Notes: generated from the sequence alone by a model not told the origin. A stretch of DNA of 60,486 nucleotides from a virus (IMGVR_UViG_3300012154_000001:1-60486); one strand, 5' to 3'. Numbered from the stretch's first letter, positions 4,469-18,029 are shown. Translations and numbers: made by a program.

Positions 4469-4528
4469 TTGCGATATCGCAACACTGACTGGGTCGGGAA
4501 TGTTCCGGCCCTTTTTGATCGGAGGATT

Positions 4529-6011: not shown

Positions 6012-6293
6012 ATGGACACGAATACAATACAGCTAATGTGCACTATTGTTTGCTGCTGTCTTGCTGCTGCTTCCTTTTGGCGAAGCGGTAATACAGACAG
6101 TGCGAGAGAAAATGAACGCTGGGGAGCGTTCAATAAAGAAATGGAGTATGTGCGCAAGGATTTGGACGAGATCAAGAATCTGGTCGGGCAAAATTCCAGA
6201 GATACAAAAGATTCTATCAGGCGCGTGCATGACCGTCTGGACGAACACTTAAGAAAAGAACACAATCAGACCGTGCCTAAACGCTCTGGTTAA
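6012..6293 (+). CDS. Membrane-anchored coiled-coil protein
   Basis: 93 aa with an N-terminal Cys-rich TM helix followed by a charged helix. Lysis-proximal. Confidence 0.45.
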   Translation: MDTNTIQLMCTIVCCCLAAASFWRSGNTDSARENERWGAFNKEMEYVRKDLDEIKNLVGQNSRDTKDSIRRVHDRLDEHLRKEHNQTVPKRSG

Positions 6294-6305: not shown

Positions 6306-6602
6306 GTGGATATTAACAAAAGAATTGTGGACGTGGAAGAAAGAGTGGAACATCTCAACTTCGCCACGGAAATATTGCAGGAATTGAAGTCGACAATCAA
6401 GCGACTGTGGATAATTTTGATTATAATATTATCGCTATGGGCTGCCACTATTGGTGGATTTGTCTGGTACATTTCGCAATACGACTATATAGGTTACTCG
6501 CAGGATGGAAACGGTTACAACAACGTAAATGTCAACAATGGAGGATCGGTGCAGAATAACAATGGGACAAAAAGTCAAAACGAGACTCAAGAAGAGCGGT
6601 AA
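6306..6602 (+). CDS. XhlA-like membrane protein (coiled coil then TM)
   Basis: GTG start after AAGGAGGG. Architecture matches PBSX XhlA: an N-terminal helix, a TM segment (IILIIILSLWAATIGGFVWYI), then an Asn/Gly-rich tail. Confidence 0.4.
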   Translation: MDINKRIVDVEERVEHLNFATEILQELKSTIKRLWIILIIILSLWAATIGGFVWYISQYDYIGYSQDGNGYNNVNVNNGGSVQNNNGTKSQNETQEER

Positions 6603-6688: not shown

Positions 6689-6901
6689 ATGGCCCAGCAG
6701 CTTAAAGTATGCGATTTTACAATGCCGGAAATTGAGCGGTTCCGTGCTCTTTGCAATTTCACATCGGAGGAAATGGAGTTTTTCAACCTTCGGAGCCGGA
6801 ACAAAAGTATCATAGAGATCACTTTCGCCATGAATATATCCAAATCCAAGGCAGATATTTTGTCTAAAAAAGTAAAATCGAAGATTATAAGAGTTTTATA
6901 A
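6689..6901 (+). CDS. Small HTH regulator (sigma-70 region 4 / LuxR-like)
   Basis: 70 aa. The segment FTSEEMEFFNLRSRNKSIIEITFAMNISKSKADILSKKVKSKI fits a region-4-type HTH. Confidence 0.45.
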   Translation: MAQQLKVCDFTMPEIERFRALCNFTSEEMEFFNLRSRNKSIIEITFAMNISKSKADILSKKVKSKIIRVL

Positions 6902-6941: not shown

Positions 6942-6957
6942 AAGGTTTTGCATGATT

Positions 6958-7155
6958 TTATTTGCTGTTATCAGCAAAGACCAACAGATACTCTTCAACG
7001 TCTTCCAAAGTTCCAAGTTCCCACGGACCAGCCGAACTATTGTCGGTCACATAAAAAGTATCGCCCGATTTATAAAAAGCAAAACTACTATCGCTATAAA
7101 CCCGAAACGCTTCTTCGCTCAATTCGTGCGAATCTGTAAATTCATATCTTTTCAT
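6958..7155 (-). CDS. Hypothetical acidic protein
   Basis: 65 aa, last gene of the minus-strand block. No recognisable family. Confidence 0.45.
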   Translation of the reverse strand: MKRYEFTDSHELSEEAFRVYSDSSFAFYKSGDTFYVTDNSSAGPWELGTLEDVEEYLLVFADNSK

Positions 7156-7200
7156 ATTTGCGCCTCCTTTTCTCCCGGTGATGAGCCGAAGTCAATTTGT

Positions 7201-7698
7201 CTAATCTTTGCGAAACCCCAGGTATTTCATTATTGTATCAGTTTCGTCATTAATTTTTTTATCCGTATATTCATCGGTTCCCCGACATCCGAATTGATCA
7301 GCAAGAGCTTTATGTATGTCATGTCTAAGCGTTTCGCCGGAAGTCAGCGCTGCACGTCGCTCCTTAGCGGCTGCTTCTCGCTGCCGTTCCAAGAGCTCCT
7401 CCTCTTCTTGCTCAGTCCTGAAAACGTTGTCTAATTCGGACTTGCGCCATGACTCCACCTCTTCGAAACGCATATAATCATGATTGTCAAAATTCTGATC
7501 CGCACCATCCTTAAATTCTACCTGCGTAATTTCCTCAATCGGATCATCAAATCCATCGACCATAATATAATAGCCTTTTTCGTCCTTTTTCAAGCAGGAC
7601 TCAATGGCTTCTTTCAGAGAATCAAATACTCCATACACATCGTCACGCTCCTTGCCAAATGATGCCTCATAACGCCCGATGGCTAAAAATTTTCTCAT
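7201..7698 (-). CDS. Hypothetical acidic protein
   Basis: Start moved to MRKFLAIG (GGGAGAAGGG SD), which avoids overlap with the upstream gene. Strongly D/E-rich. Confidence 0.5.
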   Translation of the reverse strand: MRKFLAIGRYEASFGKERDDVYGVFDSLKEAIESCLKKDEKGYYIMVDGFDDPIEEITQVEFKDGADQNFDNHDYMRFEEVESWRKSELDNVFRTEQEEEELLERQREAAAKERRAALTSGETLRHDIHKALADQFGCRGTDEYTDKKINDETDTIMKYLGFRKD

Positions 7699-7702
7699 AT
7701 TA

Positions 7703-7891
7703 TTATTTCCCTTCTCCCGGCGAAGCGGGTTTCCTCGCGCGGTTGTCCGCATTGGGCTCATCTTCATCGACCAGCCAAAATTTACCGCTTTTTTCAGCAG
7801 TTTTCAGAAAGCCTTTTTGTGCTTTCTGTCTGGCTGTGACATCGCTGATGCCGTTTTTACGTGCCCATTCCGATAATAATATTTTGCTCAT
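7703..7891 (-). CDS. MerR/excisionase-like HTH protein (possible Xis)
   Basis: 62 aa. LSEWARKNGISDVTARQKAQKG...FWLVDED resembles excisionase/IS607-type N-terminal HTH domains. Confidence 0.4.
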   Translation of the reverse strand: MSKILLSEWARKNGISDVTARQKAQKGFLKTAEKSGKFWLVDEDEPNADNRARKPASPGEGK

Positions 7892-7894
7892 ATT

Positions 7895-8515
7895 TTACGC
7901 CTCTCCTTTCAATCCTTCCAGTTTAAATTTTGCATTTTCAAGCGCTTCTTTGGTGATACATGAAGGGATATAGCCCTCGCCGCCCTCATTTATCACATTG
8001 TTATAATTCTTGCGCCAAGCTGCATATTCCGCATTGGTCGGCAGCCATTTTTGCCCTTCTGCTTTTTCGATAAACTTGACCAGTTCTGCTTTTTCGGTTT
8101 CGAGCTTCTTCGCTTTTCGCTCTACGATATCCGTAAAGCTATTTTCAAAATCACTCATTGTCTGCGCGATACTATTGTAGATGTCTTCTGGCATTGTTAT
8201 TATGCAAAACTGGCCATCGCTTCTGTGGCCTGCAACATAGTATCTTTCCCCGTTGGCGGTAACGTCTTCATCGGTCATAGTTATATATCCCGTTGCCGCG
8301 TCGCGCAGAACATTCCCACCGCAGTCTATTTCAAATAACCGGGAGCCATTAGCAGAGACCCTGGCGGTGAAAACGATTTTTGATTCGTGGGAAATGGTTC
8401 CACCCCAGCCATCGTCAATCACTTCATCGTAGGCAGCGCGGTATTCACATCCGAGAATATACTCGATCTTGCTCCCCCTTTTGGTTGTCCATGTAAATGT
8501 TTTGTCCTTTTTCAT
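7895..8515 (-). CDS. Hypothetical protein
   Basis: Start at MKKDKTF (AAGGAG SD). 206 aa with a C-terminal coiled coil. Confidence 0.5.
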   Translation of the reverse strand: MKKDKTFTWTTKRGSKIEYILGCEYRAAYDEVIDDGWGGTISHESKIVFTARVSANGSRLFEIDCGGNVLRDAATGYITMTDEDVTANGERYYVAGHRSDGQFCIITMPEDIYNSIAQTMSDFENSFTDIVERKAKKLETEKAELVKFIEKAEGQKWLPTNAEYAAWRKNYNNVINEGGEGYIPSCITKEALENAKFKLEGLKGEA

Positions 8516-8538
8516 TTTTTCTTTCTCCTTTATATTTT

Positions 8539-8844
8539 TTAACACCATGACAATCTGTATTTTTTTATGTCCGTTACCCTGCTGATGTCGATGCAAGTCT
8601 CCTTGCATTCGCCGCCAACTATTTCGCACCAGTACAATTCATCTTCTTCCAGTTCAGCGGTGCCATACATGTAGCTGGTGTAGTCCTGCCAGCCCATGGA
8701 TGATATTCTACTTAGCAGCCAATCAAGCGGATATTCAATATCGTCGAAGTATTCATAATTTTCGGGAAGAACAACGAAGCATTTTTCTCCTTGCAGGCTT
8801 GTTGTTTCGTTTCTATCATATACCCTCAATACCGTTCTTTTCAT
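8539..8844 (-). CDS. Hypothetical protein
   Basis: 101 aa with GGAGGG SD. First gene downstream of the 8877-8906 promoter. Confidence 0.5.
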   Translation of the reverse strand: MKRTVLRVYDRNETTSLQGEKCFVVLPENYEYFDDIEYPLDWLLSRISSMGWQDYTSYMYGTAELEEDELYWCEIVGGECKETCIDISRVTDIKKYRLSWC

Positions 8845-8876
8845 CGCTGTTCCCTCCGTTCTTTATCTTATACCTT

Positions 8877-8906
8877 ATTATACCATCGATGCCGATGGTT
8901 TGTCAA
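8877..8906 (-). promoter_or_regulatory. Sigma-70-type promoter (TTGACA, 18 nt spacer, TGGTATAAT) with a palindromic spacer
   Basis: Minus-strand read: TTGACA-AACCATCGGCATCGATGG-TATAAT. The spacer carries inverted CCATCG/CGATGG arms. Confidence 0.6.
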
Positions 8907-8924
8907 GGGGTTTTTACGAATATT

Positions 8925-9686
8925 TCAAACTTTTTCACATCTGCCCTTGGTTATTTTGTCAAAGCGCTCCGGGTAAGCCTCTTTATACCATTCGAGAAAA
9001 GGCCCGTGCAGTTTTTCTTCCCCTGCTTCCCTCGCTGCCTTTGCCTCATCAAACGTGCCGAATGTTCCGAGGGAATACCACTTTCCTTTGAATCCAATTC
9101 CCGCACGATACTTCCCGGTCTTTTTATTCAGATACACGCCTCTTGCTCCGGTCGTGTTATTTTTGAACATTTTCTTTGACATGATTCTTGTCGCATTCGT
9201 ATTATTCTCTAAGCCAAATGTCTCGACCGCCCTCATCGATGCCTTTTCGTTTTTTAAACATCCACAACTAAGCACGCGTCCTTTTTCCAAGCCCTGCCGT
9301 GCAATGGCCTTAGTTTTGCCACAGTCACATCTGCATTCCCACTTGTCTCGATATCCCCGCTCCCCCGTGGATGCCTTTTTTAGCACCGTCAGCCTGCCGA
9401 AACGTCTCCCTGTCAGGTCTTGATTGTGTACGACTTTTTTCTCGCCAGCTTTGTGTAATGCTTCTTTATGCAAGCAACCGCATGAGCGTGTATCTCCAAT
9501 CAGCAGACTTCTTTCCCTGACGTTTATGGGTGGTTTTCCACATTCACATTCACATTGCCACATTCTTTTATAGTCTTTCGTTTTTTCATTCACCATCCCA
9601 ATCACAGTCAATCTTCCGAATTTTTTGCCTGTCAAATCATTTTTGCAGTTTTGGGGGTGCCTGATAATTTCATTCTTCACTTTCAT
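8925..9686 (-). CDS. AP2-domain DNA-binding protein with duplicated Cys-rich modules
   Basis: Two repeats of FGRLTV...W.C.C.CG...SCGC. C-terminal AP2 signature: ARGVYLNKKTGKYRAGIGFKGKWYSLGTFGTFDEA. Confidence 0.75.
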   Translation of the reverse strand: MKVKNEIIRHPQNCKNDLTGKKFGRLTVIGMVNEKTKDYKRMWQCECECGKPPINVRERSLLIGDTRSCGCLHKEALHKAGEKKVVHNQDLTGRRFGRLTVLKKASTGERGYRDKWECRCDCGKTKAIARQGLEKGRVLSCGCLKNEKASMRAVETFGLENNTNATRIMSKKMFKNNTTGARGVYLNKKTGKYRAGIGFKGKWYSLGTFGTFDEAKAAREAGEEKLHGPFLEWYKEAYPERFDKITKGRCEKV

Positions 9687-10117
9687 CCCTCGCTGGAATA
9701 TATTACTGCGTCATCACTAATCATGACCTCACCGCCTACAACTTTTCCGGGCACCGAAAACGGGTATACGGAAAGATCAATAGTGCATTCGCCATCGTCC
9801 GTTATGTTATTCCCGGTTCTTCCGTCAACTGCATTCGCGCCGTCAAGAAGCATTTTTTGTTCCTCTGTCCGCAGGCTTCCCCATGTCAATCCTGCGTAAT
9901 TCTTTGCGACTTCTCGCAAAAGATTGTCCGTATCAAGAAAATCCTCCATGCGGCATCCCAGCACCAGCGCAAGTTTATACAGCTTTTCGCCTGACATTCC
10001 CTCGATACGTTTCTGGCCTTGTTCAATATTGCGGATCAGGGAATAGGATACCCCTGCCGCTTTTGCAAGTCCGGACTGGGAGTATCCGGCCCGGATTCTT
10101 AACTCTTGTAATTTCAT
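9683..10117 (-). CDS. XRE-family HTH transcriptional regulator
   Basis: Start at MKLQELR (GAGGTG SD). HTH segment is LRIRAGYSQSGLAKAAGVSYSLIRNIEQG. ATGA overlap with the AP2 gene. Confidence 0.8.
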   Translation of the reverse strand: MKLQELRIRAGYSQSGLAKAAGVSYSLIRNIEQGQKRIEGMSGEKLYKLALVLGCRMEDFLDTDNLLREVAKNYAGLTWGSLRTEEQKMLLDGANAVDGRTGNNITDDGECTIDLSVYPFSVPGKVVGGEVMISDDAVIYSSEG

Positions 10118-10118
10118 A

Positions 10119-10301
10119 TTACACCTCAACCGTTCCGTGAGTGTAATTATTAGTTACACGATCATGATTTGTAGCGAAATACTTATAACCGATTACGCTG
10201 GCACTGTAAGACGTGATTTCGATGTCTTTCATGTTCCTCCCGGTTGCTTTCTTAACAATTCTTTTCATTTCGGTAATTTCTTTTGCTGTTGGTGTTCTCA
10301 T
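10119..10301 (-). CDS. Hypothetical small protein
   Basis: 60 aa with AAAGGAGAA SD. First gene downstream of the 10351-10379 promoter. Confidence 0.45.
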   Translation of the reverse strand: MRTPTAKEITEMKRIVKKATGRNMKDIEITSYSASVIGYKYFATNHDRVTNNYTHGTVEV

Positions 10302-10350
10302 AGTTTTATTCTCCTTTTATTGTGTGTTTTGTGCTCCTTAACTTAATACT

Positions 10351-10379
10351 AGTATAACACTATAGTGTTAGAATGTCAA
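10351..10379 (-). promoter_or_regulatory. Sigma-70-type promoter (TTGACA, 17 nt spacer, TATACT) with a 16-bp perfect palindrome
   Basis: Minus-strand read: TTGACA-TTCTAACACTATAGTGT-TATACT. The palindrome TAACACTATAGTGTTA lies at 10355-10370. Confidence 0.6.
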
Positions 10380-10458
10380 GGGGTTTTTACAAATATTTTA
10401 AACTTTTTTGCATTGAGAAAGAAGAAAAAGACGGGATCGCTTTCCCATCTCCCACCTA

Positions 10459-10487
10459 TCGACAATTTTTCCGCAATCTGTTATAAT
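10459..10487 (+). promoter_or_regulatory. Promoter (TCGACA, 17 nt spacer, TGtTATAAT)
   Basis: Read directly. Extended -10 element, 30 nt upstream of the 10517 gene. Confidence 0.55.
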
Positions 10488-10516
10488 TAGAAAAAAAGAA
10501 AAGGAGAATGCGAAGT

Positions 10517-11158
10517 ATGAAGAAATTAGGAACTATTTTTATTTTGGCATTTGTTTTATTATCAACGCCAGTTATGAATGCGTTTGCCGGATGGGAGAAC
10601 ATTGGTTCTGATTCGTATTACCGCAATGCAGACGGCGAATTGCTCACGGGATGGGTGCTTTTTACGATGGGATGGTTTTATTTTTACGATGATGGAAAAA
10701 TGGCGCATGATACCACTATTGGTGAATATCAAATAGGAAGCAACGGCGTATGGAAAGATCCGAACACACCGCCGCCATTATATTCGGAAATGGGCGTTAA
10801 ATGGGAAATATGCAATGCTGACGGGCAGGATGCGATAAATAAAGGAAAGGCAAACGGAACCGTGGTCTATTATGGCGGGTATTATTGGAAAGCCCATACT
10901 GCCAGTCCAGCAGAAACCGCTTCATCCGTTGGCGCGCCGCCTTATGGGGGAACGTGGTATCGGTGCGGATCGATTGAATTATCCAAACTCTTAAAAGGTC
11001 TATCAGATGGAACAATTGTATATTGTGAAGGGGAATATTGGACAAATGTGCATATCACTGGCGAGGATGTTTATGTGTTGGAGGATTTAGCAACAGTCGA
11101 ATATCAGAAAACATATCAGACATTAACGCCAGAACTATCCCTGTCCCTAAGCAAATAA
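10517..11158 (+). CDS. Secreted protein with wall-binding-type repeats (moron)
   Basis: ATG 10517 lies 10 nt after GGAG. Signal peptide is KKLGTIFILAFVLLSTPVMNAFA. Has GW/YY repeats and an internal duplication (NGTVVYYGGYYW / DGTIVYCEGEYW). Carries its own promoter and terminator. Confidence 0.65.
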   Translation: MKKLGTIFILAFVLLSTPVMNAFAGWENIGSDSYYRNADGELLTGWVLFTMGWFYFYDDGKMAHDTTIGEYQIGSNGVWKDPNTPPPLYSEMGVKWEICNADGQDAINKGKANGTVVYYGGYYWKAHTASPAETASSVGAPPYGGTWYRCGSIELSKLLKGLSDGTIVYCEGEYWTNVHITGEDVYVLEDLATVEYQKTYQTLTPELSLSLSK

Positions 11159-11211
11159 TAGAAAAATAAAGGTATGTTACATATAATAGACCCAAAATTA
11201 TGATAATACAA

Positions 11212-11244
11212 GAGCCGGTGATTAAATTCACTGGCTCATTTTTT
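11212..11244 (+). terminator. Rho-independent terminator
   Basis: GAGCCGGTGA pairs with TCACTGGCTC (one G-U pair), followed by ATTTTTT. Confidence 0.6.
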
Positions 11245-11253
11245 AAAAAGGTA

Positions 11254-11295
11254 TTGACAAGTACTTATAAAGGTGTATAATAGTACTTATAAAGG
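11254..11295 (+). promoter_or_regulatory. Promoter (TTGACA, 16 nt spacer, TATAAT) bracketed by a 14-bp direct-repeat operator
   Basis: AGTACTTATAAAGG occurs at 11260-11273 and again at 11282-11295, 22 bp apart, flanking the -10 element. Confidence 0.6.
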
Positions 11296-11305
11296 AGGTG
11301 ATAAT

Positions 11306-11461
11306 ATGTCGCCAAAGCAGATAGAGAACACCGAAAGAGTGAGTACTTATATCAGAAAGGAGCATTTGGAATCCTTAAAGATTAAGGCAATGGAGAGGGG
11401 GTTAAATGTATCAAGCTTGATCAGAATGCTGATCGTAGAGTATTTGAATGAAAAGAAATAG
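11306..11461 (+). CDS. Ribbon-helix-helix (Arc/CopG-like) repressor
   Basis: 51 aa, AAAGGAGGTG SD. RVSTYIRKEHLESLKIKAMERGLNVSSLIRMLIVEYL fits a strand-helix-helix pattern. Confidence 0.65.
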   Translation: MSPKQIENTERVSTYIRKEHLESLKIKAMERGLNVSSLIRMLIVEYLNEKK

Positions 11462-11579
11462 GACACTTGTCGCCTGGTAAGCATAAACAAATGTCCCGAT
11501 GTGAGATCTCTCTCGTAAATATTATAACACGAGCAGGGATCTCCTGTCAAAGCACAAATTTGAAAGGAGATTTTTTATT

Positions 11580-12398
11580 ATGAACGAGCTACAGATTTTT
11601 AACAATCCGGAGTTTGGAGAAGTGAGAACAGTGGAAATTGATAATGAGGCATGGTTTGTCGGCAGGGATATCGCGTTGGCCTTGGGTTACGTAAAGCCTT
11701 ATGATGCTGTGGTGCGGCATGTGGATTCAGAGGATACCCTGAAACGGGGTATACCTCATCCGCAGAGTATCAGTAAAACAATCGATACAATTCTCATTAA
11801 TGAATCCGGCATGTATGCCCTTATCATCATGAGTGAATTGCCCAGCGCCAAGAAATTCAAGCGTTGGGTCACCGCCGAAGTACTTCCGGCCATCCGCAAA
11901 CAAGGAGGCTATAATCTCCCGCAGCTTACACAAGCCGAAATGATGTTGCAAATGGCGCGGAACACGGTAGAACTTGAACGAAAGTTAGAAGCACAGGGGC
12001 AACTGCTGGAAATCCAAGATCAGCGCCTTGCCGTCATTGAGCAGACAGCGCAGGAATCAGCGACGAAGCTGGAAACCACATTGAAAGTGTTTGCAAACCC
12101 GAGTATTGACCACTGGAGCGCTGATATGAACGGCGCAATCAATGTGATGGTAGCGACATATCATTTAAGCCCGGTCAAGTTTCGGGGAATGATATACAAA
12201 GAACTGGAGGAAAGCTCCGGCATCCTGTTGGGCAGCCGCTTAATCCGTCGCAGAAAAGATATGGTGAGGCGAGGAGCTACTAAAACCGAAGCGAAAACAT
12301 TGACAAAAATGGATGTTATCAGCAAGGATAAACAATTGCGGCAGATTTTTGAGGGAATAGTTAAAAAACATCAAGCCATACATGGCGTGCAGAGATGA
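11580..12398 (+). CDS. Bro-N domain antirepressor
   Basis: N-terminal motifs ELQIFNNPEFGEVRTVEIDNEAWFVGRDIALALGY and KRWVTAEVLPAIRKQG. Confidence 0.85.
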   Translation: MNELQIFNNPEFGEVRTVEIDNEAWFVGRDIALALGYVKPYDAVVRHVDSEDTLKRGIPHPQSISKTIDTILINESGMYALIIMSELPSAKKFKRWVTAEVLPAIRKQGGYNLPQLTQAEMMLQMARNTVELERKLEAQGQLLEIQDQRLAVIEQTAQESATKLETTLKVFANPSIDHWSADMNGAINVMVATYHLSPVKFRGMIYKELEESSGILLGSRLIRRRKDMVRRGATKTEAKTLTKMDVISKDKQLRQIFEGIVKKHQAIHGVQR

Positions 12399-12413
12399 AG
12401 GGAGATATAAATC

Positions 12414-12539
12414 ATGGCAGAACATAAGGAGTACATCAAGTTAATTATGGAAATATTAGAGAGAACTAATAATGTGACACTGACAAGGTGCGCGTACTAC
12501 TTTGTGAGAAGCATGTGCGGAGGAGGTAAAAAATTATGA
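12414..12539 (+). CDS. Micro-protein (41 aa), paralog A
   Basis: Not in the ORF track. GGAG SD. MAEHKEYIKLIMEILERTNNVTLTRCAYYFVRSMCGGGKKL. ATGA coupling to the next gene. Confidence 0.45.
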   Translation: MAEHKEYIKLIMEILERTNNVTLTRCAYYFVRSMCGGGKKL

Positions 12540-12667
12540 CCGAACGCGAAACGTACATTAAATCAATCGTGAATTACTTAGAAAGAATTGGCAGCGATAC
12601 ATTCGTGAGGCGCGTATATGTTCTTGTAAAAAGCGTATACACACAGAAGAGCAGTAAGGTGTCATGA
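12536..12667 (+). CDS. Micro-protein (43 aa), paralog B
   Basis: Not in the ORF track. GGAGGAGG SD. MTERETYIKSIVNYLERIGSDTFVRRVYVLVKSVYTQKSSKVS. Shares YIK.I...LER...T..R..Y..V.S with paralog A. Confidence 0.45.
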   Translation: MTERETYIKSIVNYLERIGSDTFVRRVYVLVKSVYTQKSSKVS

Positions 12668-12987
12668 AAAATAAGAGCGAAGCGAAAGGAGACAAAATGA
12701 CAAGGATGGAAAAATTAGAGATGGAGAATCTGGTATTAAAAAACATTCTGGATTGCATTTCAGAAAGTCTTGACGAATTAAAGAGCGCTGATTACGACAA
12801 AGATGGATATATTCTTTTTGCCGGTAGGGTAACAGCACACATTGAAAAGTATCCCGACTGCGCCAAGTTCGCCCTTGATAATGGGTATACCCTGGATTAT
12901 AGAAATTCTGCCTTTTTTAAGAATCAGCCGGACGGTCTGCCCGTTGTACTGTATCCGGTGAGTGCTGGCAAGAGAAAAACGAAATAG
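12664..12987 (+). CDS. Hypothetical protein
   Basis: 107 aa, ATGA-coupled. An alternative start at 12697 has an AAAGGAG SD. Confidence 0.5.
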   Translation: MKNKSEAKGDKMTRMEKLEMENLVLKNILDCISESLDELKSADYDKDGYILFAGRVTAHIEKYPDCAKFALDNGYTLDYRNSAFFKNQPDGLPVVLYPVSAGKRKTK

Positions 12988-13147
12988 ATTCAGACGCAAG
13001 AGGCTTCCTTGATATAGGAGGTCTCTTTTTTTATTGCATTTTTCTAACGCTTTTTCCAAACTTTATAAGCATTATTCAAATGCTTTTCTTTCCCCGAAAT
13101 CCCTTAAAATTACCATATAAGAAATGAACGTGACGGGAGGTTTCAGC

Positions 13148-13306
13148 GTGATTGACAAATTAGACGAAGCCTTGACAGATTTAACAGAAATGACACTTGA
13201 TGCAATCAAAGAAGCCAAGGAAAAGAAGCATTTCAGCAAGGATTTTATTGAAGCTGCATGCATCGTTTTGTCAATGAGCTACGGGAGGTTTGGAGATGGT
13301 AAGTAA
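13148..13306 (+). CDS. Hypothetical small protein (cargo operon gene 1)
   Basis: GTG 13148 lies 7 nt after GGGAGG. ATG 13124 is an alternative start. Confidence 0.4.
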   Translation: MIDKLDEALTDLTEMTLDAIKEAKEKKHFSKDFIEAACIVLSMSYGRFGDGK

Positions 13307-13541
13307 CTTGATTCAGCCGCCAGCACCCAAGAATGCAACTGCCGGCAAAAAAGAGAATAGCGACAGCCATTCAGTCACCGCCGGGAACTGCGCCAGGCTT
13401 TTTGTAAATGGGATGGGCGATGCGCAGCGGGAACGCTTCAAATTAATGCTGCAAAGCGGTGTTCAGTGCGGCGAGAGTGTTGCCAGAAGCTACGGCGTGC
13501 CGCTGGGCGACTTTATGGCGGAGGTACGGAAAATTATATGA
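13296..13541 (+). CDS. Hypothetical protein (cargo operon)
   Basis: ATG 13296 lies 7 nt after GGGAGG and overlaps the previous gene. Confidence 0.45.
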   Translation: MVSNLIQPPAPKNATAGKKENSDSHSVTAGNCARLFVNGMGDAQRERFKLMLQSGVQCGESVARSYGVPLGDFMAEVRKII

Positions 13542-13702
13542 GTGAAAAGCAGTTTGTTGACCGGATGATGCGAATCGGATACAAAGAAGCAGAGGCGGAG
13601 GATATGTTTGATTTCTATCTATCTATTGATTGCGCGGACAATCTAAATGTTTTTGCATTGATTGGAGAAATATCTATGGGATTACAGGAGGGGCATGAAT
13701 GA
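13538..13702 (+). CDS. Hypothetical small protein (cargo operon)
   Basis: ATGA coupling; 54 aa. Confidence 0.4.
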   Translation: MSEKQFVDRMMRIGYKEAEAEDMFDFYLSIDCADNLNVFALIGEISMGLQEGHE

Positions 13703-14121
13703 ATTATTCTTTTGAAAATGGGACCATAAACAGTTATCCAACCCGCGTTATCGCCGGGAGGGATATCCTGGAATTTCAATCAAATCAGCAGGTCCTGATA
13801 GGTCACACACTTGAGTATTGCAACGAACTCGAATCAACGCTAAATGAGGCCATATCAAAGGCAGAGGGGTTCTATAATCGCCTTGTGGAGCTGGGCGACA
13901 TTATACCGCCGAAGTCAGCAGAAGAGTTGTTGCAGGAGCAGGCAATACAGCAACAGGAAATCAATGCAACCCTTCTGGCAACCATTCAAAAACTATCTGA
14001 CAAAATAACTAAAATGGAGGAAAAAGATGGACTTAAATTCATTGGTGAGGACAGTAAGCAAAGTGAGCAAAAACGCAGCAGCAAGGATACAGTCAAACCC
14101 CGAAAGCAAACAGATGCTTGA
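13699..14121 (+). CDS. Hypothetical coiled-coil protein (cargo operon)
   Basis: 140 aa, ATGA coupling. The 3' end overlaps the next ORF by 95 nt. Confidence 0.45.
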   Translation: MNYSFENGTINSYPTRVIAGRDILEFQSNQQVLIGHTLEYCNELESTLNEAISKAEGFYNRLVELGDIIPPKSAEELLQEQAIQQQEINATLLATIQKLSDKITKMEEKDGLKFIGEDSKQSEQKRSSKDTVKPRKQTDA

Positions 14122-14431
14122 TCAGGCGATCCAGGGAGCAAAGCAGTTCGGGAGTAGCGAAGAGGGATTGTATAGGGCCATTGATGCCGTTGGTGGTGCA
14201 CCCATGGTCAACAGGATATCAACTATACTGGATCGCAATCCCGCCGTCAAAATAGCTGTTAATGGCATTTTATCGAGTAACGGCCTAAGTCTTAACAAGA
14301 TAAAAGATCGATTCCAGGAATCGCAATATAGACAAGCGCCATCTAATTTCAGCACGAACCAGTCTTTTCCCACTCGGCAGGCAGGTGCTCCAGCAAATTC
14401 GTATCGCGAGAAGCTTGACAGAATGAAATGA
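14027..14431 (+). CDS. Hypothetical protein (cargo operon)
   Basis: 134 aa, with a strong GGAGGAAAAAG SD just before the ATG. Confidence 0.45.
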   Translation: MDLNSLVRTVSKVSKNAAARIQSNPESKQMLDQAIQGAKQFGSSEEGLYRAIDAVGGAPMVNRISTILDRNPAVKIAVNGILSSNGLSLNKIKDRFQESQYRQAPSNFSTNQSFPTRQAGAPANSYREKLDRMK

Positions 14432-14490
14432 AACAAATGTTTATAGGCTTTTGCCTTTAACATATAAAATCATGAAAGGAGATAAAAAAC

Positions 14491-15057
14491 ATGGCAAGTT
14501 ATAGTATTGAAAATGACTCCATTGGCGGAGGTGGCCTCGGTTGGGGACTCGGCGGCGGTGGTGGTCTGGGATTTCTGATCATTATTTTGTTATTCTTCGC
14601 TTGCTTTTCCGGCGGTGGGTTATTTGGCGGCCGTTGCGGCGAAGGACATAATCATGATCGCGACTTCGATGAAGTTCGCAGCCGGTTTACGAACCCATGC
14701 TGCTGCGTAAGCAATTGTCAGATTGATAAGGATGTTGTCACGTCCAGGGATGCCGGTATCATCGAGCAGAACAAAATTTACGAAAAGAATCTGGAAAGAA
14801 AGCTGCTTGAAAAAGACATGGTTATCCAGGAGCAGAAGAATCAGCTGTTTGTCAGCGGCATGTTCGCAGAGCTTCAGGAGAATCTGAACGCTAAATTCGG
14901 CTGTCTGGAAAAGGAGATCGAACGTAAACCAAACGCAGTGCCGCATTTTGTAAAAACGGTCGATTCTTGTGTACAACCACAGATGAATTGCTTTGATCGA
15001 TTCCGTGAATTTAACGGGCGCGATAGAGGCAGGGATGATGACTGCGGCTGGTGCTAA
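14491..15057 (+). CDS. Gly-rich membrane protein with Cys-rich coiled-coil tail (YjcZ-like N-terminus)
   Basis: The N-terminus GGGGLGWGLGGGGGLGFLIIILLFFACFSGGGLFGG resembles YjcZ-type sporulation peptides. Has a CCC cluster and a C-terminal CGWC. Confidence 0.5.
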   Translation: MASYSIENDSIGGGGLGWGLGGGGGLGFLIIILLFFACFSGGGLFGGRCGEGHNHDRDFDEVRSRFTNPCCCVSNCQIDKDVVTSRDAGIIEQNKIYEKNLERKLLEKDMVIQEQKNQLFVSGMFAELQENLNAKFGCLEKEIERKPNAVPHFVKTVDSCVQPQMNCFDRFREFNGRDRGRDDDCGWC

Positions 15058-15143
15058 TACCGGAAATTAAATAATTCGTTTTGCCGTCGTAAAGGCTTCA
15101 CAGGGCGGCATGATGTCGCTCTGTTTTTTTAGGAGGTGAATAA

Positions 15144-15341
15144 ATGCCATTGCTTCAAGTTTTAGGGTTGTTATACGCCGGAACACTAATTGAGAATCCG
15201 GAAAAAAGAAAGAAATTTATAGGAATCATAAACGGCGCAAGCGTAAGTATTGAAAAAGCTGTGAATGGATTCATGGGCAAAGGCGGTGTTGCGGATGAGC
15301 CGACCGTGGTTTCAGGCGAAGAAACAACCGATTACCGATAA
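15144..15341 (+). CDS. Hypothetical small protein (cargo operon)
   Basis: 65 aa with a GGAGGTGA SD. Confidence 0.45.
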   Translation: MPLLQVLGLLYAGTLIENPEKRKKFIGIINGASVSIEKAVNGFMGKGGVADEPTVVSGEETTDYR

Positions 15342-15543
15342 CGAGATTGCTATACGCAGCTCTGTGGGCGCCTGGTGGGGATCTCTTTTGACCGCCGCAA
15401 TTCTAACCGTCGCGGTGAATAATCTGTTGATTAACATGAGAACCCTTGAATTAACAAAAGAAAATCTTGAAAACACAAGGCGTAACGCTTTAAATACTGC
15501 CGAAATGATTGAACAACTTAAACAAATAAATCAAAAAATTTAA
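15265..15543 (+). CDS. Hypothetical TM + coiled-coil protein, start uncertain
   Basis: TM segment is WWGSLLTAAILTVAVNNLLI. Candidate starts are 15295 (ATG) and 15364 (GTG). Overlaps the previous ORF. Confidence 0.3.
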   Translation: MDSWAKAVLRMSRPWFQAKKQPITDNEIAIRSSVGAWWGSLLTAAILTVAVNNLLINMRTLELTKENLENTRRNALNTAEMIEQLKQINQKI

Positions 15544-15555
15544 AGGAGAATAAAA

Positions 15556-15951
15556 ATGAGTGCATGCAAAAATTGCTTTACGAAACTTGTATCAACCGCT
15601 ATCGCTGTAGTCGGTACAAATTTACAAATCACCGTAACCGGCCCCACGGCCTTGGAACCAAGCACAAAATACTGTCTGGTATTGACATCCCCATTACCGG
15701 AAGCCGGAGAAAACCTCCCGGTCACGATATTATTGGCGGGGGGAACCGTCGCCATCCCGCTGCTCAAAACTGTTTGTAGAATCACAACGAGCTGCGGAAA
15801 AACAGCCCAATGCACATTTGGCGATCAGGAATTCGGGATTGATCTGCCGGAGCGTGGCCGCACAAGAATCCCGCTGTACTTGAATAACAACATGGCCGAT
15901 TTCTTCGACCTTCGCGGAGTGGAACATTTGCGCAGATGCCGGGAGGTGTAA
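15556..15951 (+). CDS. Hypothetical Cys-bearing, probably beta-rich protein (cargo operon)
   Basis: 131 aa with AAAGGAGAA SD and an N-terminal CKNC pair. No recognisable family. Confidence 0.5.
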   Translation: MSACKNCFTKLVSTAIAVVGTNLQITVTGPTALEPSTKYCLVLTSPLPEAGENLPVTILLAGGTVAIPLLKTVCRITTSCGKTAQCTFGDQEFGIDLPERGRTRIPLYLNNNMADFFDLRGVEHLRRCREV

Positions 15952-15954
15952 ACT

Positions 15955-16155
15955 ATGTACACGCAGAAATATATCGAAAAATTAGATATGGCCATTGATG
16001 AATTGGTTAGGTCGGAGTCCAAGGGGCTTACCAAGGCGGAACACGATCTGCACGTGTTGTTAGAAAACAGAAAGCATATCGAGAGATGGAAAGAGATGCA
16101 GAGCGGCACACATAAAGAGATGATGGACGGCAACCCGCGGACATCTTATTTCTAA
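15955..16155 (+). CDS. Hypothetical helical protein (cargo operon)
   Basis: 66 aa, tightly packed after the previous gene. Confidence 0.45.
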   Translation: MYTQKYIEKLDMAIDELVRSESKGLTKAEHDLHVLLENRKHIERWKEMQSGTHKEMMDGNPRTSYF

Positions 16156-16167
16156 GGAGGTAGAAAA

Positions 16168-16716
16168 ATGGTCAATAAAGCCGACTGCATAAGACAGATT
16201 CAGAATACCGTGAATTATCTGTATGCATTTGAAGAATTTGAAAATACAGCGTTTGTCAAGGCCTTATCCTTGGGAATTCAGGGTAAGAAACGAGAGGCAC
16301 GCATGGAAGGTACCAATGATGAAAACATTCGAAAATACCTGCAATCAGAAGCGTTCGATTTGTTCGAGGTTGAGATTTATCCTCAGAAATCAAATGCGTC
16401 GTTTCCGAACGTCAATAGTGTCGAAACATTTCTGGCGGAATACCGGAATGGGCTGTGGGATATGTACTGGAAGATCACGGAGAGCGCGAATATGTTTGCG
16501 GCCCCGCTCTGTCTTAGGGATTTGGCCTGCCCATTATATGAGCGCGCCAGCTGCATCAAGTGCGCCATTGTGGACCTGAACCGCAAGATCAAGAGATATG
16601 CCGATATGAAAGCACAGGGGACTGCCCTGCATGATCTCTACATCTACGAGACAACAGAATACAATAATCACGATGCAGCAGAGAAAAAAGAAGCAAAAAT
16701 GGGATACAAATATTAA
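16168..16716 (+). CDS. Hypothetical protein (last gene of cargo operon)
   Basis: 182 aa with a GGAGGT SD. Followed by a hairpin. Confidence 0.5.
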   Translation: MVNKADCIRQIQNTVNYLYAFEEFENTAFVKALSLGIQGKKREARMEGTNDENIRKYLQSEAFDLFEVEIYPQKSNASFPNVNSVETFLAEYRNGLWDMYWKITESANMFAAPLCLRDLACPLYERASCIKCAIVDLNRKIKRYADMKAQGTALHDLYIYETTEYNNHDAAEKKEAKMGYKY

Positions 16717-16721
16717 AAAAT

Positions 16722-16749
16722 CCCCGGTGGCAAGCCGGGGTTAATCTTT
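16722..16749 (+). terminator. Hairpin terminator (weak U-tract)
   Basis: CCCCGG-TGGCAAG-CCGGGG followed by TTAATCTTT. Confidence 0.45.
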
Positions 16750-16961
16750 GTATCTTGCCGGCAATATAATGCGTAGCATGATACGAAAATGATACGTTTT
16801 ATTTTGGTATATACTGTGAAAATCATTTTTTCGGATACTAAGCATTAAAATATATACCAAAAATATGTAAATTATGTAAAAATATAAAATCATCGATTCC
16901 GGCGGAATCATTCAAAAAAGGCTGGAAAGTGATGATTTTACGCCATTTTTTGCATTTAGAT
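16750..16961. other. Probable attP region (AT-rich, repeat-dense, 3' of int)
   Basis: Palindrome TTGCCGGCAA at 16755-16764. ATGATACG at 16778 and 16789. 12-bp inverted repeat TTTTGGTATATA / TATATACCAAAA at 16802-16813 and 16851-16862. Confidence 0.4.
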
Positions 16962-18029
16962 TTAGCTCGTGATACTATTTTGATACGATTGTGCCAATGC
17001 ATCGGCCACGTCCTTGTGCTTGTTTGGATATAGATGCCCGTAGGTGCTGTTAACTATCTCAACAGTATCTCCAATTCTTTCGGCTATCAACAAGGGGGAA
17101 AAACCCAGCTCTATAAGAAGGGAAACATGACTATGTCTAATATCATGTACTCGAATTTGCTTGATGCCGGATTGCTGACAACCCATGTTCATTGTTCTTC
17201 TTAATTTCGAACGCGAGAACAAAAATAACCTTTCTCTGGACTGAACGTCATAAATATGGCTCATGTAATCTTCGATTAGATCGATCAAAAAAGGCGGCAA
17301 CGTAACAACACGATTGCTGTTATCTGTTTTTGGCGGCGTAATTATGTCTTTGCCATCGTCTCGATAGTGAGTCTTCGACACGGTTAAGGTTTTGTTTTTC
17401 AAATCAATATCTTTGCTTGGATTAATAGCCATCATCTCGCCAAAACGCAAACCTGTGTAAAAAAGTATCTGAAAGGCCAGCCTGGTTTCCGGCTTTTTAA
17501 TATATTCGAGAAAAGTTATAAATTCTGATTGTGTCCAAAATTCCATGCGCCCTGCCTTTGATTTGCCTATAGTTTTTACCGGCGCACATGGATCAGTGTT
17601 CATTTTATAGTACCTCTTTGCAAAATTAAAAATAGCATTAAGGTCTTTGTTTATCAGCCTCTGGTATGTTGGACTAAATTCCTTTGTCATTATAATCCCC
17701 TGCCATTTTCGGATATCAGCGGGCGTTATTTCGTTTGCACGTTTTTCCTCAAAGTAAGGCAGTATATGATTCTTGATACGGCTTTCCTTGCCCTTAACCG
17801 TAGATGCTTTGATATGTAAGGCGATATCTTCCCTGTAGAGTGCGCAGAGGGCACGAAAGGTCATATCAGGGCTTCCTTGCTGCCGTTCCAGAAAATCCCG
17901 CTCCCAAGCGGCAGCCTCTTTCTTTGTGGAAAAACCGCGCTTCATTTTCTGATCAGACTTTCCCGTCCAATCGGTGTATGAGAATTTGCAGTACCACGTT
18001 TTTCTGGCTTCATCTTTGTATGCTGGCAT
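16962..18029 (-). CDS. int: Tyrosine integrase
   Basis: 355 aa. N-terminal arm/SAM-like domain (WYCKFSYTDWTGK...). C-terminal HDIRHSHVSLLIELG and GHLY catalytic region. Confidence 0.9.
   Translation of the reverse strand: MPAYKDEARKTWYCKFSYTDWTGKSDQKMKRGFSTKKEAAAWERDFLERQQGSPDMTFRALCALYREDIALHIKASTVKGKESRIKNHILPYFEEKRANEITPADIRKWQGIIMTKEFSPTYQRLINKDLNAIFNFAKRYYKMNTDPCAPVKTIGKSKAGRMEFWTQSEFITFLEYIKKPETRLAFQILFYTGLRFGEMMAINPSKDIDLKNKTLTVSKTHYRDDGKDIITPPKTDNSNRVVTLPPFLIDLIEDYMSHIYDVQSRERLFLFSRSKLRRTMNMGCQQSGIKQIRVHDIRHSHVSLLIELGFSPLLIAERIGDTVEIVNSTYGHLYPNKHKDVADALAQSYQNSITS

What the first reader, a model, noticed from the sequence alone, without database searches (positions are those of the whole stretch)
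13124..16716. Eleven-gene cargo operon of unknown function between the antirepressor region and attP/int, including a YjcZ-like Gly-rich membrane protein and Cys-rich proteins
Seen:
- The genes are tightly packed and partly translationally coupled (ATGA/overlap junctions at 13296, 13538 and 13699). The block ends at a hairpin (16722-16749) just before the AT-rich attP-like region.
- I could not place any product in a standard phage family.
- 14491-15057 begins with GGGGLGWGLGGGGGLGFLIIILLFFACFSGGGLFGG, carries a CCC cluster and ends in CGWC.
- 15556-15951 begins MSACKNC and looks beta-rich.
- 15265-15543 is a TM plus coiled-coil protein.

Established: genes next to attP in temperate phages are typically lysogenic-conversion or defence cargo. 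YjcZ-family peptides are glycine-rich sporulation-associated membrane peptides of Bacillota.

Inference: this is the most likely place for an undescribed host-directed system, such as envelope or spore-surface remodelling, exclusion or defence.
Basis: partly seen in the sequence, partly recalled or inferred. Interest (0 to 1): 0.62.

Follow-up and report, generated by a model that had tools for sequence, protein, structure and literature searches.

The report
Conserved unknown late-gene cassette of gut phages
The eleven genes are real, but they are a conserved and so far undescribed gene cassette that sits after the lysis genes in a group of gut phages and probably builds a membrane-anchored protein assembly, not swappable cargo tied to the integration site.

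Summary
There are eleven co-oriented genes with strong ribosome-binding sites, ATGA junctions, and bounding terminators at 12998 and 16722. Two starts need correction: c1 at GTG 13148 and c8 at ATG 15295.

No product matches Pfam, PHROGs, NCBIfam or PADLOC, so "YjcZ-like" rests on amino-acid composition only.

- **Conservation.** Genes c4-c8 and c11 keep their order in distant prophages (30-75% identity) that carry different lysins. Their steady neighbour is the lysis cassette. The integrase lies 0.25 to 13.6 kb away.
- **Selection.** Purifying selection is strong.
- **Attenuator.** A covarying hairpin with a T-run between c6 and c7 is kept in five lineages.
- **c6.** A predicted N-out/C-in membrane protein with a His/Asp linker, Cys clusters and a coiled coil.
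- **c7 and c8.** Small membrane partners.
- **c9.** Fills a variable beta-protein slot, which holds a BclA-C-like protein in one relative.
- **c11.** Folds like ferritin but lacks the di-iron ligands.

A reduced version occurs in a phage with spanin-type lysis genes, which argues against a spore-specific role.

Best reading: a late, membrane-associated assembly of unknown purpose. Earlier notes of this scan describe what appears to be the same cassette in at least ten other genomes.

The parts
6689..6901 (+). 70-aa sigma-region-4-like / HTH small regulator. It follows the lysis genes and in relatives lies directly upstream of the cassette. Here about 6 kb of inserted DNA separates the two.
   Evidence: 57% identical to the 71-aa gene that precedes the cassette in L032. 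Weak hit to phrog_1190, sigma factor, E 0.008. The positional counterparts in L014 and L015 hit Sigma70_r4 at E 1e-5 and 0.015.
12998..13035 (+). Intrinsic-terminator-like hairpin (12 bp stem plus T7) that insulates the cassette from the Bro-N operon.
   Evidence: A hairpin with a T-run sits in the same place upstream of the first cassette gene in L014, L031 and L032.
13148..13306 (+). c1, a 52-aa acidic helical protein, lineage-specific.
   Evidence: RBS GGGAGG plus GTG. Homologues in L014 and L015 at 51-63% identity. Absent from L031 and L032.
13296..13541 (+). c2, about 81 aa, with an HTH-like C-terminus, lineage-specific.
   Evidence: dN/dS about 0.15.
13538..13702 (+). c3, a 54-aa small helical protein, lineage-specific.
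   Evidence: ATGA coupling at both ends. Found in close relatives only by tblastn. Positional analogues exist in L015 and L034.
13699..14121 (+). c4, 140 aa: a conserved N-domain (YPTRVI.G.DILEF...LIG.T..YC.ELE), a coiled coil and a disordered basic tail. Core cassette gene.
   Evidence: 53% identity to L031 and 37% to L032.
14027..14431 (+). c5, a 134-aa basic, fast-evolving protein whose gene overlaps c4 by 95 nt. Core cassette gene.
   Evidence: Own RBS. The N-terminus encoded in the overlap is conserved in L014 and L015. 30% identity to L031.
14491..15057 (+). c6, the 188-aa signature membrane 'stalk' protein. It has a conserved acidic N-peptide, a Gly-rich hydrophobic segment, a His/Asp-rich linker, CCC, a coiled coil of about 70 aa and a C-terminal Cys cluster.
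   Evidence: Alignment A1. Hydropathy 2.5-2.8 over 17 residues; no K/R in the N-flank and 1-4 in the C-flank in 20 of 20 homologues. Only 29 clusters in 5.8 billion proteins. hhalign probability 98% to the L032 version.
15100..15131 (+). Conserved hairpin plus T-run that abuts the c7 ribosome-binding site. Read as an internal attenuator that splits the operon into c1-c6 and c7-c11.
   Evidence: A 10-bp stem is kept in five lineages with compensatory changes, and there is no room for a promoter before c7.
15144..15341 (+). c7, a 65-aa protein with a hydrophobic N-terminal helix and an acidic tail. Core cassette gene.
   Evidence: 37% identity to L031..
15295..15543 (+). c8, 82 aa: a basic N-terminus, one transmembrane segment and a coiled coil of about 40 aa. 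Core cassette gene.
   Evidence: Conserved from DNEIAIRSS onward. 35% identity to L031. Hydropathy.
15556..15951 (+). c9, a 131-aa Cys-containing beta protein that occupies a variable slot.
   Evidence: AF2 model is all-beta, pLDDT 64, with no PDB fold or sequence match. The slot holds unrelated beta proteins in L031, L032 and L034; the L032 one is BclA_C-like and collagen-fibre-tip-like.
15955..16155 (+). c10, a 66-aa helical protein paired with c11.
   Evidence: 53% identity to L032. A 56-aa analogue is translationally coupled to the c11-like gene in L035.
16168..16716 (+). c11, a 182-aa protein with a ferritin-like four-helix-bundle fold and a conserved C-terminal tail (HD..E.KE..GY). It is the best-conserved cassette protein.
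   Evidence: 75% identity to L031 and L032. AF2 pLDDT 80. Foldseek top hits are ferritin, bacterioferritin and Dps, TM 0.55-0.65. Only 43 representative clusters in 1.84 billion proteins. Alignment A5.
16722..16740 (.). Bidirectional terminator hairpin that ends the cassette before the attP-like region and int.

Best explanation
The block is one copy of a conserved, undescribed phage cassette. It belongs to the end of the late (tail and lysis) gene string. It is not attP-linked cargo.

Shown:
- c4, c5, c6, c7, c8, a variable beta-protein slot (c9), c10 and c11 travel together in fixed order in several lineages of temperate gut phages.
- They always lie downstream of the holin and lysin genes. 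In relatives they directly follow a small sigma-region-4-like regulator.
- They are bounded by hairpin-plus-T-run elements.
- A conserved internal hairpin directly abuts the c7 ribosome-binding site.

Inferred mechanism:
- The cassette is transcribed in the lytic cycle, either by read-through of the attenuators or from a weak regulator-dependent promoter. The internal hairpin sets c1-c6 above c7-c11.
- The products build an assembly on the cytoplasmic membrane.
- c6 inserts with its short acidic, Gly-rich N-terminus outside. Its His/Asp-rich linker, Cys clusters and coiled-coil 'stalk' lie inside.
- c7 and c8 are small membrane partners.
- The soluble proteins c4 and c5, the variable c9 'knob' and the c10-c11 pair dock on the stalk. 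None of these has a signal peptide. c11 has the ferritin fold but no di-iron site.
- c1-c3 are lineage-specific adaptors or regulators.

Purpose: not established. My best guess is a role at the envelope in the last stage of infection, such as control of lysis or release, or exclusion of further phage.
For: - **Conserved synteny.** Order is kept at 43-80% identity in L014, L015, L012 and L030. It is kept at 30-53% identity (c11 at 75%) in L031 and L032, whose lysins differ (CHAP, PG_binding_1-type, M23-like, glucosaminidase/amidase).
- **Position.** The cassette follows the lysis genes in every lineage. Integrase distance varies from 0.25 to 13.6 kb.
- **Selection.** Purifying selection is strong.
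- **Regulator.** A sigma-r4-like gene lies upstream in L014, L015, L032 and L035, and the window's copy is at 6689-6901.
- **Attenuator.** The hairpin is conserved with covariation and leaves no promoter space before c7.
- **Membrane topology.** c6 has hydropathy 2.5-2.8 and a positive-inside pattern in 20 of 20 homologues. c8 and c7 have hydrophobic segments.
- **Holin.** A canonical r1t-type holin is present at about 4274-4468, so the cassette is not the holin.
- **c11 fold.**
- **Homing endonucleases.** Related phages carry HNH-AP2 genes inserted between cassette genes without loss of the cassette.
Against:
- The strong terminator upstream of c1 and sigma-70-like -10 elements in some relatives (TGcTATAAT in L031) fit an autonomous, moron-like unit that could be expressed in lysogens.
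- All four complete carriers I checked are temperate.
- In this window the cassette is no longer adjacent to the lysis genes. It lies behind a Bro-N operon.
- Membrane topology and protein-protein contacts are inferred from sequence only.
- No biochemical function is assigned to any product.
Confidence: 0.45

Rival explanations
1. It is lysogenic-conversion, exclusion or defence cargo. On this reading it is an autonomous terminator-bounded unit expressed from the prophage, and it changes the host envelope or blocks other phages.
For: - It lies 250 bp from the int end and the attP-like region in this window.
- A strong terminator lies upstream and a bidirectional terminator downstream, which is moron-like insulation.
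- Plausible -10 elements follow the upstream terminator in L031 and L015.
- All complete carriers checked encode a tyrosine integrase.
- Membrane proteins are typical of superinfection-exclusion genes.
Against: - No PADLOC hit.
- The cassette is conserved rather than variable among relatives, and its constant neighbour is the lysis cassette, not int.
- The attenuator between c6 and c7 and the one before the regulator gene suggest read-through from the late operon.
- Seven or more co-evolving genes is unusual for exclusion genes.
Confidence: 0.2
2. It encodes an accessory virion fibre. c6 would be a trimeric, metal- or Cys-stabilised coiled-coil shaft and c9 a variable receptor-binding knob. 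The other genes would be connectors and assembly chaperones.
For: - The c9-slot protein of L032 matches the C-terminal part of 'collagen like minor tail' phrog_30509 (E 3e-7) and BclA_C (E 3.5e-5, below threshold).
- The slot varies between phages as receptor-binding tips do.
- c6-like proteins with a Gly-rich N-terminus, CCCET, a coiled coil and a C-terminal Cys tail sit right after the lateral tail fibre gene in 132 GenBank enterobacterial phage records.
- His-rich stretches are known metal sites in phage fibres (my own knowledge of T4 gp37).
Against: - c6 of this family has a very hydrophobic 17-19 residue segment, and c7 and c8 are membrane proteins.
- The cassette is separated from the tail genes by the lysis cassette and terminators.
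- Profile comparison of the window's c6 family with the enterobacterial set is not significant, at probability 12-13%.
- phrog_9288 is a promiscuous model that matches 7 of 14 control genomes.
Confidence: 0.2
3. It is a spore-surface or sporulation module, with a YjcZ-like peptide and exosporium-like proteins that remodel the host spore.
For: - The Gly-rich hydrophobic N-terminus of c6 resembles tiny sporulation peptides in composition.
- A BclA_C-like protein fills the c9 slot of a relative.
- Several spore-coat proteins have a ferritin-like fold (my own knowledge).
- The regulator is about the size of GerE.
Against: - No YjcZ or tiny-TM model hits c6.
- The window's own c9 is not BclA-like by Pfam, fold search or hhalign.
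- A reduced cassette (regulator, c6-like, c10-like, c11-like) sits in a phage with Peptidase_M15_3 and a lipobox-plus-C-terminal-TM spanin-like gene, which points to a host with an outer membrane.
- Earlier notes of this scan reached the same view on other genomes.
Confidence: 0.05

Closest known systems
Morons and lysogenic-conversion cassettes of temperate phages (genes between the lysis module and attP/attR)
   Same: It lies after the lysis genes and, in this window, next to attP. It is bounded by terminators and is not needed for virion structure as far as can be seen.
   Different: It is not variable. Seven to eight genes keep their order down to 30-50% identity across phages with different lysins. 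It is linked to the lysis cassette rather than to int, has an internal attenuator, and has a dedicated sigma-r4-like regulator in relatives.
BclA C-terminal domain / C1q-TNF-like knobs and collagen-like phage tail-fibre tips (Pfam PF18573, phrog_30509)
   Same: In the relative L032 the c9 slot holds a free-standing 144-aa protein that matches these models weakly. It sits next to a coiled-coil protein.
   Different: The window's own c9 shows no such similarity by sequence, profile or predicted fold. There is no collagen repeat and no exosporium leader. The partner c6 is membrane-anchored.
Ferritin-like superfamily (ferritin, bacterioferritin, Dps; phage Dps-like proteins)
   Same: c11 is predicted as a four-helix bundle with the long B-C crossover. 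Its best fold matches are ferritin-like proteins (TM 0.55-0.65) and phage Dps-like proteins.
   Different: No Pfam ferritin model matches. The E...ExxH di-iron ligands are absent. The conserved residues are instead GLQGEKR..R, D64, R139 and a C-terminal HD..E.KE..GY tail.
YjcZ / tiny transmembrane sporulation peptides of Bacillota
   Same: A Gly-rich run followed by a very hydrophobic stretch at the N-terminus of c6.
   Different: c6 is 188 aa with a coiled coil and Cys clusters. No YjcZ or tiny-TM model matches. A c6-like protein also occurs in a phage of a probable diderm host.
Four-gene set after the lateral tail fibre gene of enterobacterial siphophages (Edwardsiella phage eiAU gp08-gp11; Escherichia phage DanielBernoulli bas08_0030-0027; CAjan)
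   Same: The first protein has the same layout as c6-like proteins: a Gly-rich N-terminus, a CCCET motif, a coiled coil and a C-terminal Cys tail. It is followed by a small protein, a beta-rich protein of about 170 aa and a small helical protein. The L032 c6-like protein matches eiAU gp08 pairwise at E 1e-9.
   Different: These proteins have no transmembrane segment (hydropathy 1.2). No c11-like protein is present. Profile-profile comparison with the window's c6 family is not significant. The function there is also unknown.

Membership tests
YjcZ-family / tiny-TM sporulation peptides | Match to the curated family models (Pfam YjcZ, NCBIfam tiny-TM/YjcZ) | tested here: not met
   No hit for c6 at E <= 0.1 in Pfam or NCBIfam.
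YjcZ-family / tiny-TM sporulation peptides | Very small peptide (tens of residues) made only of the Gly-rich and hydrophobic segment | tested here: not met
   c6 is 188 aa with a His/Asp linker, Cys clusters and a coiled coil.
Known anti-phage defence systems (PADLOC) | At least one component matching a PADLOC model | tested here: not met
   Only chance-level hits (E >= 0.01, to a coiled-coil region of c4) among ten products.
Moron / lysogenic-conversion cargo | Insulated unit with its own terminator | tested here: met
   Terminators at 12998-13027 and 16722-16740.
Moron / lysogenic-conversion cargo | Presence or absence, or replacement by other genes, among related phages | tested here: not met
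   The cassette is present in the same order in all related loci that cover the region, and in distant lineages.
Moron / lysogenic-conversion cargo | Expression from the repressed prophage | not testable with these tools
The promoter scan found no strong sigma-70 site between 13035 and 13148.
BclA_C / C1q-TNF-like jelly roll (for c9) | Match to PF18573 or to a TNF-like fold | tested here: not met
   The window's c9 has no Pfam hit, no PDB fold match for the AF2 model, and hhalign probability 0.1% to the BclA_C-like protein of L032. Only the L032 protein matches, at E 3.5e-5 and below the cut-off.
Ferritin-like superfamily (for c11) | Four-helix bundle with ferritin topology | tested here: met
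   AF2 pLDDT 80. Foldseek probability 1.0 and TM 0.55-0.65 to ferritin, bacterioferritin and Dps, though E is only about 1e-2.
Ferritin-like superfamily (for c11) | Di-iron ligands (E, ExxH on helices A-D) | tested here: not met
   No conserved His in the helices. The conserved positions are K41, R42, D64, R139, H168 and D169.
Holin / lysis proteins (for c7, c8) | Match to a holin family, or being the only holin candidate next to the lysin | tested here: not met
   No holin model hits c7 or c8. An r1t-type holin lies at about 4274-4468 next to the lysin.
Sigma-70 region 4 / small HTH regulator (for 6689-6901) | Match to Sigma70_r4 models | tested here: inconclusive
   The window protein has no Pfam hit and matches phrog_1190 (sigma factor) at E 0.008. 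The positional counterpart in L014 matches Sigma70_r4_2 at E 1e-5, just below the cut-off.

The most novel reading that the evidence does not exclude
The cassette encodes a previously unknown late-stage phage apparatus. It would be a membrane-anchored, cytoplasm-facing, Cys/His (metal)-stabilised coiled-coil stalk (c6 with c7 and c8). The stalk would carry an exchangeable beta-sandwich knob (c9 slot) and a catalytically novel ferritin-fold protein (c10-c11). Output would be set by a dedicated region-4-only regulator and an internal attenuator. The apparatus would be used by many phages of gut anaerobes to control the end of infection, for example lysis timing, release or exclusion. A soluble cousin may sit next to the lateral tail fibres of E. 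coli phages.
Probability: 0.3. Interest if true: 0.75.

Novelty: categorically new. Interest (0 to 1): 0.55.

Why it matters
A fixed set of seven or more genes is kept together under strong selection in many gut phages, yet none of them matches a described family. That marks a phage function that is still unknown.

It sits at the end of the late operon and includes membrane proteins. It may therefore bear on how phages of gut anaerobes finish infection or deal with the host envelope.

Proteins of similar layout in E. coli K-12 phages of the BASEL collection could make the question testable in a laboratory system, if the relationship holds.

It also shows that 'next to attP' is a weak guide to cargo. 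The position in this window results from a 6-kb insertion between the lysis genes and the cassette.

Tried and rejected
- **Family scans.** Pfam, PHROGs, NCBIfam and PADLOC scans of all products gave nothing above chance.
- **GenBank phages.** blastn of the block gave no match. tblastn of c11 gave none and of c4 one weak fragment.
- **GTDB genomes.** Two pattern scans of the representative genomes with c11 and c4 alignments confirmed no relatives. The c4 pattern chosen by the tool was poor, so this is weak evidence of absence.
- **c9.** The AF2 model is only moderately confident (pLDDT 64) and matches nothing in the PDB by fold or sequence. hhalign finds no link to the slot proteins of L031 or L032.
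- **Link to enterobacterial phages.** I tried to link the window's c6 to the eiAU gp08 family. It is supported only through L032 (pairwise E 1e-9). Direct profile comparison gives probability 12-13%. phrog_9288 matches 7 of 14 control genomes, so it is unspecific. I keep this link as a lead only.
- **Rfam.** No family found in 12900-17000.
- **Literature.** Searches on YjcZ, BclA plus prophage, eiAU and Seuratvirus proteomics found nothing that describes the cassette.
- **Double-glycine leader.** I considered reading the c6 N-terminus this way and dropped it. There is no peptidase or transporter partner, and the protein is 188 aa.
- **Holin role for c7 and c8.** Dropped because a canonical holin is present.

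Full report
**What the window is.** The window is a complete 60,486-bp phage record with direct terminal repeats, which means a circular map.

Read around the circle, the gene order is as follows:
- int (16962-18029, minus strand), a cI-like repressor and an antirepressor;
- replication, head and tail genes, including baseplate J (474-1568) and tail fibre genes;
- an r1t-type holin (about 4274-4468) and a lysin with glucosaminidase, amidase and choline-binding domains (4469-5917);
- two transmembrane/coiled-coil genes (6012-6293, 6306-6602) and a 70-aa HTH gene (6689-6901);
- a stretch of about 6 kb holding minus-strand HTH and AP2 genes, a cell-wall-binding protein, and an RHH-plus-Bro-N unit;
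- the eleven-gene block, a hairpin, an AT-rich region and int again.

**The observation.**
- All eleven ORFs are there, and each has a strong Shine-Dalgarno sequence.
- The coupled junctions at 13296, 13538 and 13699 are real.
- Two starts should move. c1 starts at GTG 13148, because GGGAGG lies 7 nt upstream and the homologues begin MxDKxD. c8 starts at ATG 15295, because conservation begins just downstream and an ATG sits at the same place in L014.
- The c4/c5 overlap of 95 nt is genuine. c5 has its own ribosome-binding site, and its N-terminus, which is encoded inside the overlap, is conserved in diverged relatives.
- Besides the terminal hairpin (16722-16740) there is a 12-bp hairpin with a T7 run directly upstream of c1 (12998-13027), and an 11-bp hairpin with a T7 run between c6 and c7 (15100-15124).
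- Against relatives at 45-80% protein identity, dN is 0.2-0.5 while synonymous sites are saturated. Where it can be computed, dN/dS is 0.07-0.32.

**No known families.** Pfam, PHROGs, NCBIfam and PADLOC give nothing above chance for any of the eleven products. 'YjcZ-like' therefore describes composition and is not a family assignment.

The families are small:
- c6: 29 clusters among 5.8 billion proteins.
- c9: 19 clusters.
- c11: 42 clusters, and 43 representatives at 50% identity in 1.84 billion proteins with a profile search.

None of them carries a name. No GenBank phage has c11, and c4 gives only a weak fragment hit.

**The block is a conserved cassette.** IMG/VR relatives (L002-L030) keep c1, c2, c4, c5, c6, c7, c8 and c9 in order at 43-80% identity.

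More distant copies were reached through single homologues:
- **L031.** Order: CHAP lysin, HTH, Bro-N, then c4 (53%), c5 (30%), c6 (32%), c7 (37%), c8 (35%), an unrelated 136-aa beta protein, c11 (75%), and then bacterial genes.
- **L032/L033.** Order: r1t holin; a lysin carrying a PG_binding_1 domain; the two transmembrane/coiled-coil genes; a 71-aa gene 57% identical to window 6689-6901; then c4, c5, a 230-aa c6 (hhalign probability 98%), c7, c8, a 144-aa BclA_C-like protein, c10 (53%) and c11 (75%).
- **L034.** c11 (49%) lies at a prophage end next to ruvA and ruvC.
- **L014 and L015.** The cassette directly follows holin, lysin, the two transmembrane/coiled-coil genes and a Sigma70_r4-like gene.

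The core is therefore c4-c8, a variable slot, c10 and c11. c1-c3 are lineage-specific.

The integrase lies 0.25 kb from the cassette here, but 4.7, 6.3 and 13.6 kb away in three other complete genomes. The lysis cassette is the neighbour that stays. In this window, and in its close relatives, that adjacency was broken by the 6-kb insertion.

Related phages carry HNH-AP2 genes inserted between c5/c6, c6/c7 or c8/c9 without losing any cassette gene.

**Transcription signals.**
- In every lineage a hairpin with a T-run precedes the first cassette gene.
- The c6-c7 spacer folds into a 10-bp hairpin followed by a T-run that runs straight into the c7 ribosome-binding site. The stem is kept in five lineages and several of its pairs change on both sides. 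No promoter fits between it and c7, so c7-c11 depend on read-through. I read this as an attenuator that sets stoichiometry.
- The regulator gene is preceded by the same kind of element.
- I found no convincing sigma-70 promoter in 13035-13148. L031 has a TGcTATAAT there.

**The proteins.**
- **c6.** It has a conserved acidic N-peptide (MASYxVENDxIGG), a Gly-rich and very hydrophobic segment (hydropathy 2.5-2.8 over 17 residues), SGGGLFG, a His/Asp-rich linker, conserved cysteines (C70, C76, C160, C167, C188), about 70 residues of coiled coil, and a terminal Cys cluster. None of 20 homologues has Lys or Arg in the 15 residues before the hydrophobic segment, and all have 1-4 after it. By the positive-inside rule this suggests N-out/C-in, which places the stalk and the cysteines in the cytoplasm. 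This is an inference.
- **c8.** A basic N-terminus, one transmembrane segment and a coiled coil.
- **c7.** A hydrophobic N-terminal helix.
- **c9.** Predicted all-beta (pLDDT 64), with no fold or sequence match. Its slot holds unrelated beta proteins elsewhere. The L032 protein matches BclA_C (E 3.5e-5, below the cut-off) and the C-terminal part of a 'collagen like minor tail' PHROG (E 3e-7).
- **c11.** It folds with confidence (pLDDT 80) into a four-helix bundle. Its best matches are ferritin, bacterioferritin, Dps and phage Dps-like proteins (TM 0.55-0.65). It lacks the di-iron ligands. What it conserves is GLQGEKR..R, D64, R139 and a C-terminal HD..E.KE..GY tail. The 181- and 203-aa proteins in the same position in L014 and L015 align as distant members.
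- **Signal peptides.** c4, c5, c9, c10 and c11 have no apparent signal peptide, judged by reading the sequences and not by a prediction tool.

**Host range.** A reduced form sits in a complete 37-kb temperate phage (L035). It consists of a small HTH gene, a 287-aa c6-like protein with the same N-terminal motif and CCCETNLN repeats, a c10-like gene and a c11-like gene. That phage's lysis genes are a holin, a Peptidase_M15_3 and a lipobox-plus-C-terminal-TM protein of the unimolecular-spanin type. This points to a host with an outer membrane and argues against a spore-specific role. Only the c11 homology is solid here. The c6 link rests on the N-terminal motif (E 4e-4) and on shared layout.

**A lead, not a result.** The L032 c6-like protein matches gp08 of Edwardsiella phage eiAU (tblastn E 8e-5; pairwise E 1e-9). 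The gp08 family occurs in 132 GenBank phage records, among them DanielBernoulli (Bas08), CAjan, Sasha and haarsle. In the three records I examined (eiAU, DanielBernoulli and CAjan) it lies directly after the tail fibre gene and is followed by three conserved small genes.

These proteins share the Gly-rich N-terminus, CCCET, coiled coil and C-terminal Cys tail, but have no transmembrane segment. Direct profile comparison with the window's family is not significant. The PHROG that joins them matches 7 of 14 control genomes.

**Verdict.**
- The interpretation as attP cargo, defence or spore remodelling is only partly supported.
- The best reading, at confidence about 0.45, is a conserved late cassette that builds a membrane-associated stalk-and-partner assembly of unknown purpose.
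- The rivals are prophage-expressed conversion or exclusion genes (0.2), an accessory virion fibre (0.2) and a spore module (0.05).
- No paper in the library describes the cassette.
- Earlier notes of this scan describe what appears to be the same cassette in at least ten other genomes and reach similar conclusions. I tested their main claims only in part.

Noticed in passing
window 6012-6293 and 6306-6602: This is a pair of small genes, one with a TM followed by a coiled coil and one with a coiled coil followed by a TM. It lies directly after the lysin and is conserved in the same place in L014, L015, L032 and L034 (motif RR.H.R.D.HL). It has no family match. It may be a lysis accessory pair.
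   Followed up: partly
window 6952-13030: About 6 kb separates the lysis genes and small regulator from the cassette here, whereas they are adjacent in L014, L015 and L032. The stretch holds a minus-strand HTH gene, an AP2-domain gene, a secreted choline-binding-repeat protein and an RHH-plus-Bro-N unit with a perfect consensus promoter at 11254. It looks like an inserted second regulatory island.
   Followed up: partly
L008-L011 (8624-9244), L015 (7427-7888 and 9059-9709), L012 (1872-2516): Minus-strand HNH/AP2-type homing-endonuclease genes are inserted at different intergenic sites of the cassette (c5/c6, c6/c7, c8/c9) in related phages. The window has none of these insertions.
   Followed up: partly
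window 15058-15146 and the same spacer in L014, L015, L031, L032: A conserved two-hairpin RNA element with compensatory changes ends in a T-run that abuts the c7 ribosome-binding site. No Rfam family matches it.
   Followed up: yes
L037 5641-7495 (Edwardsiella phage eiAU gp08-gp11); L038 4821-6666 (Escherichia phage DanielBernoulli bas08_0030-0027); L039 4806-6770 (CAjan): A conserved four-gene set of unknown function follows the tail fibre gene in these three phages. The family of its first protein is found in 132 GenBank phage records. That protein has a Gly-rich N-terminus, a CCCETNLNIER motif and a C-terminal GCCGC tail.
   Followed up: partly
L035 2615-3641 (minus strand): A SocA/Panacea-domain antitoxin-like gene and a membrane-protein gene are inserted between the small regulator and the c6-like gene of a putative diderm-host phage.
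   Followed up: no
L015 12676-13812: A TnpB/IS200-605-like gene lies a few kb downstream of the cassette in a related phage genome. I identified it by reading the translated sequence and did not run a family search on it.
   Followed up: no
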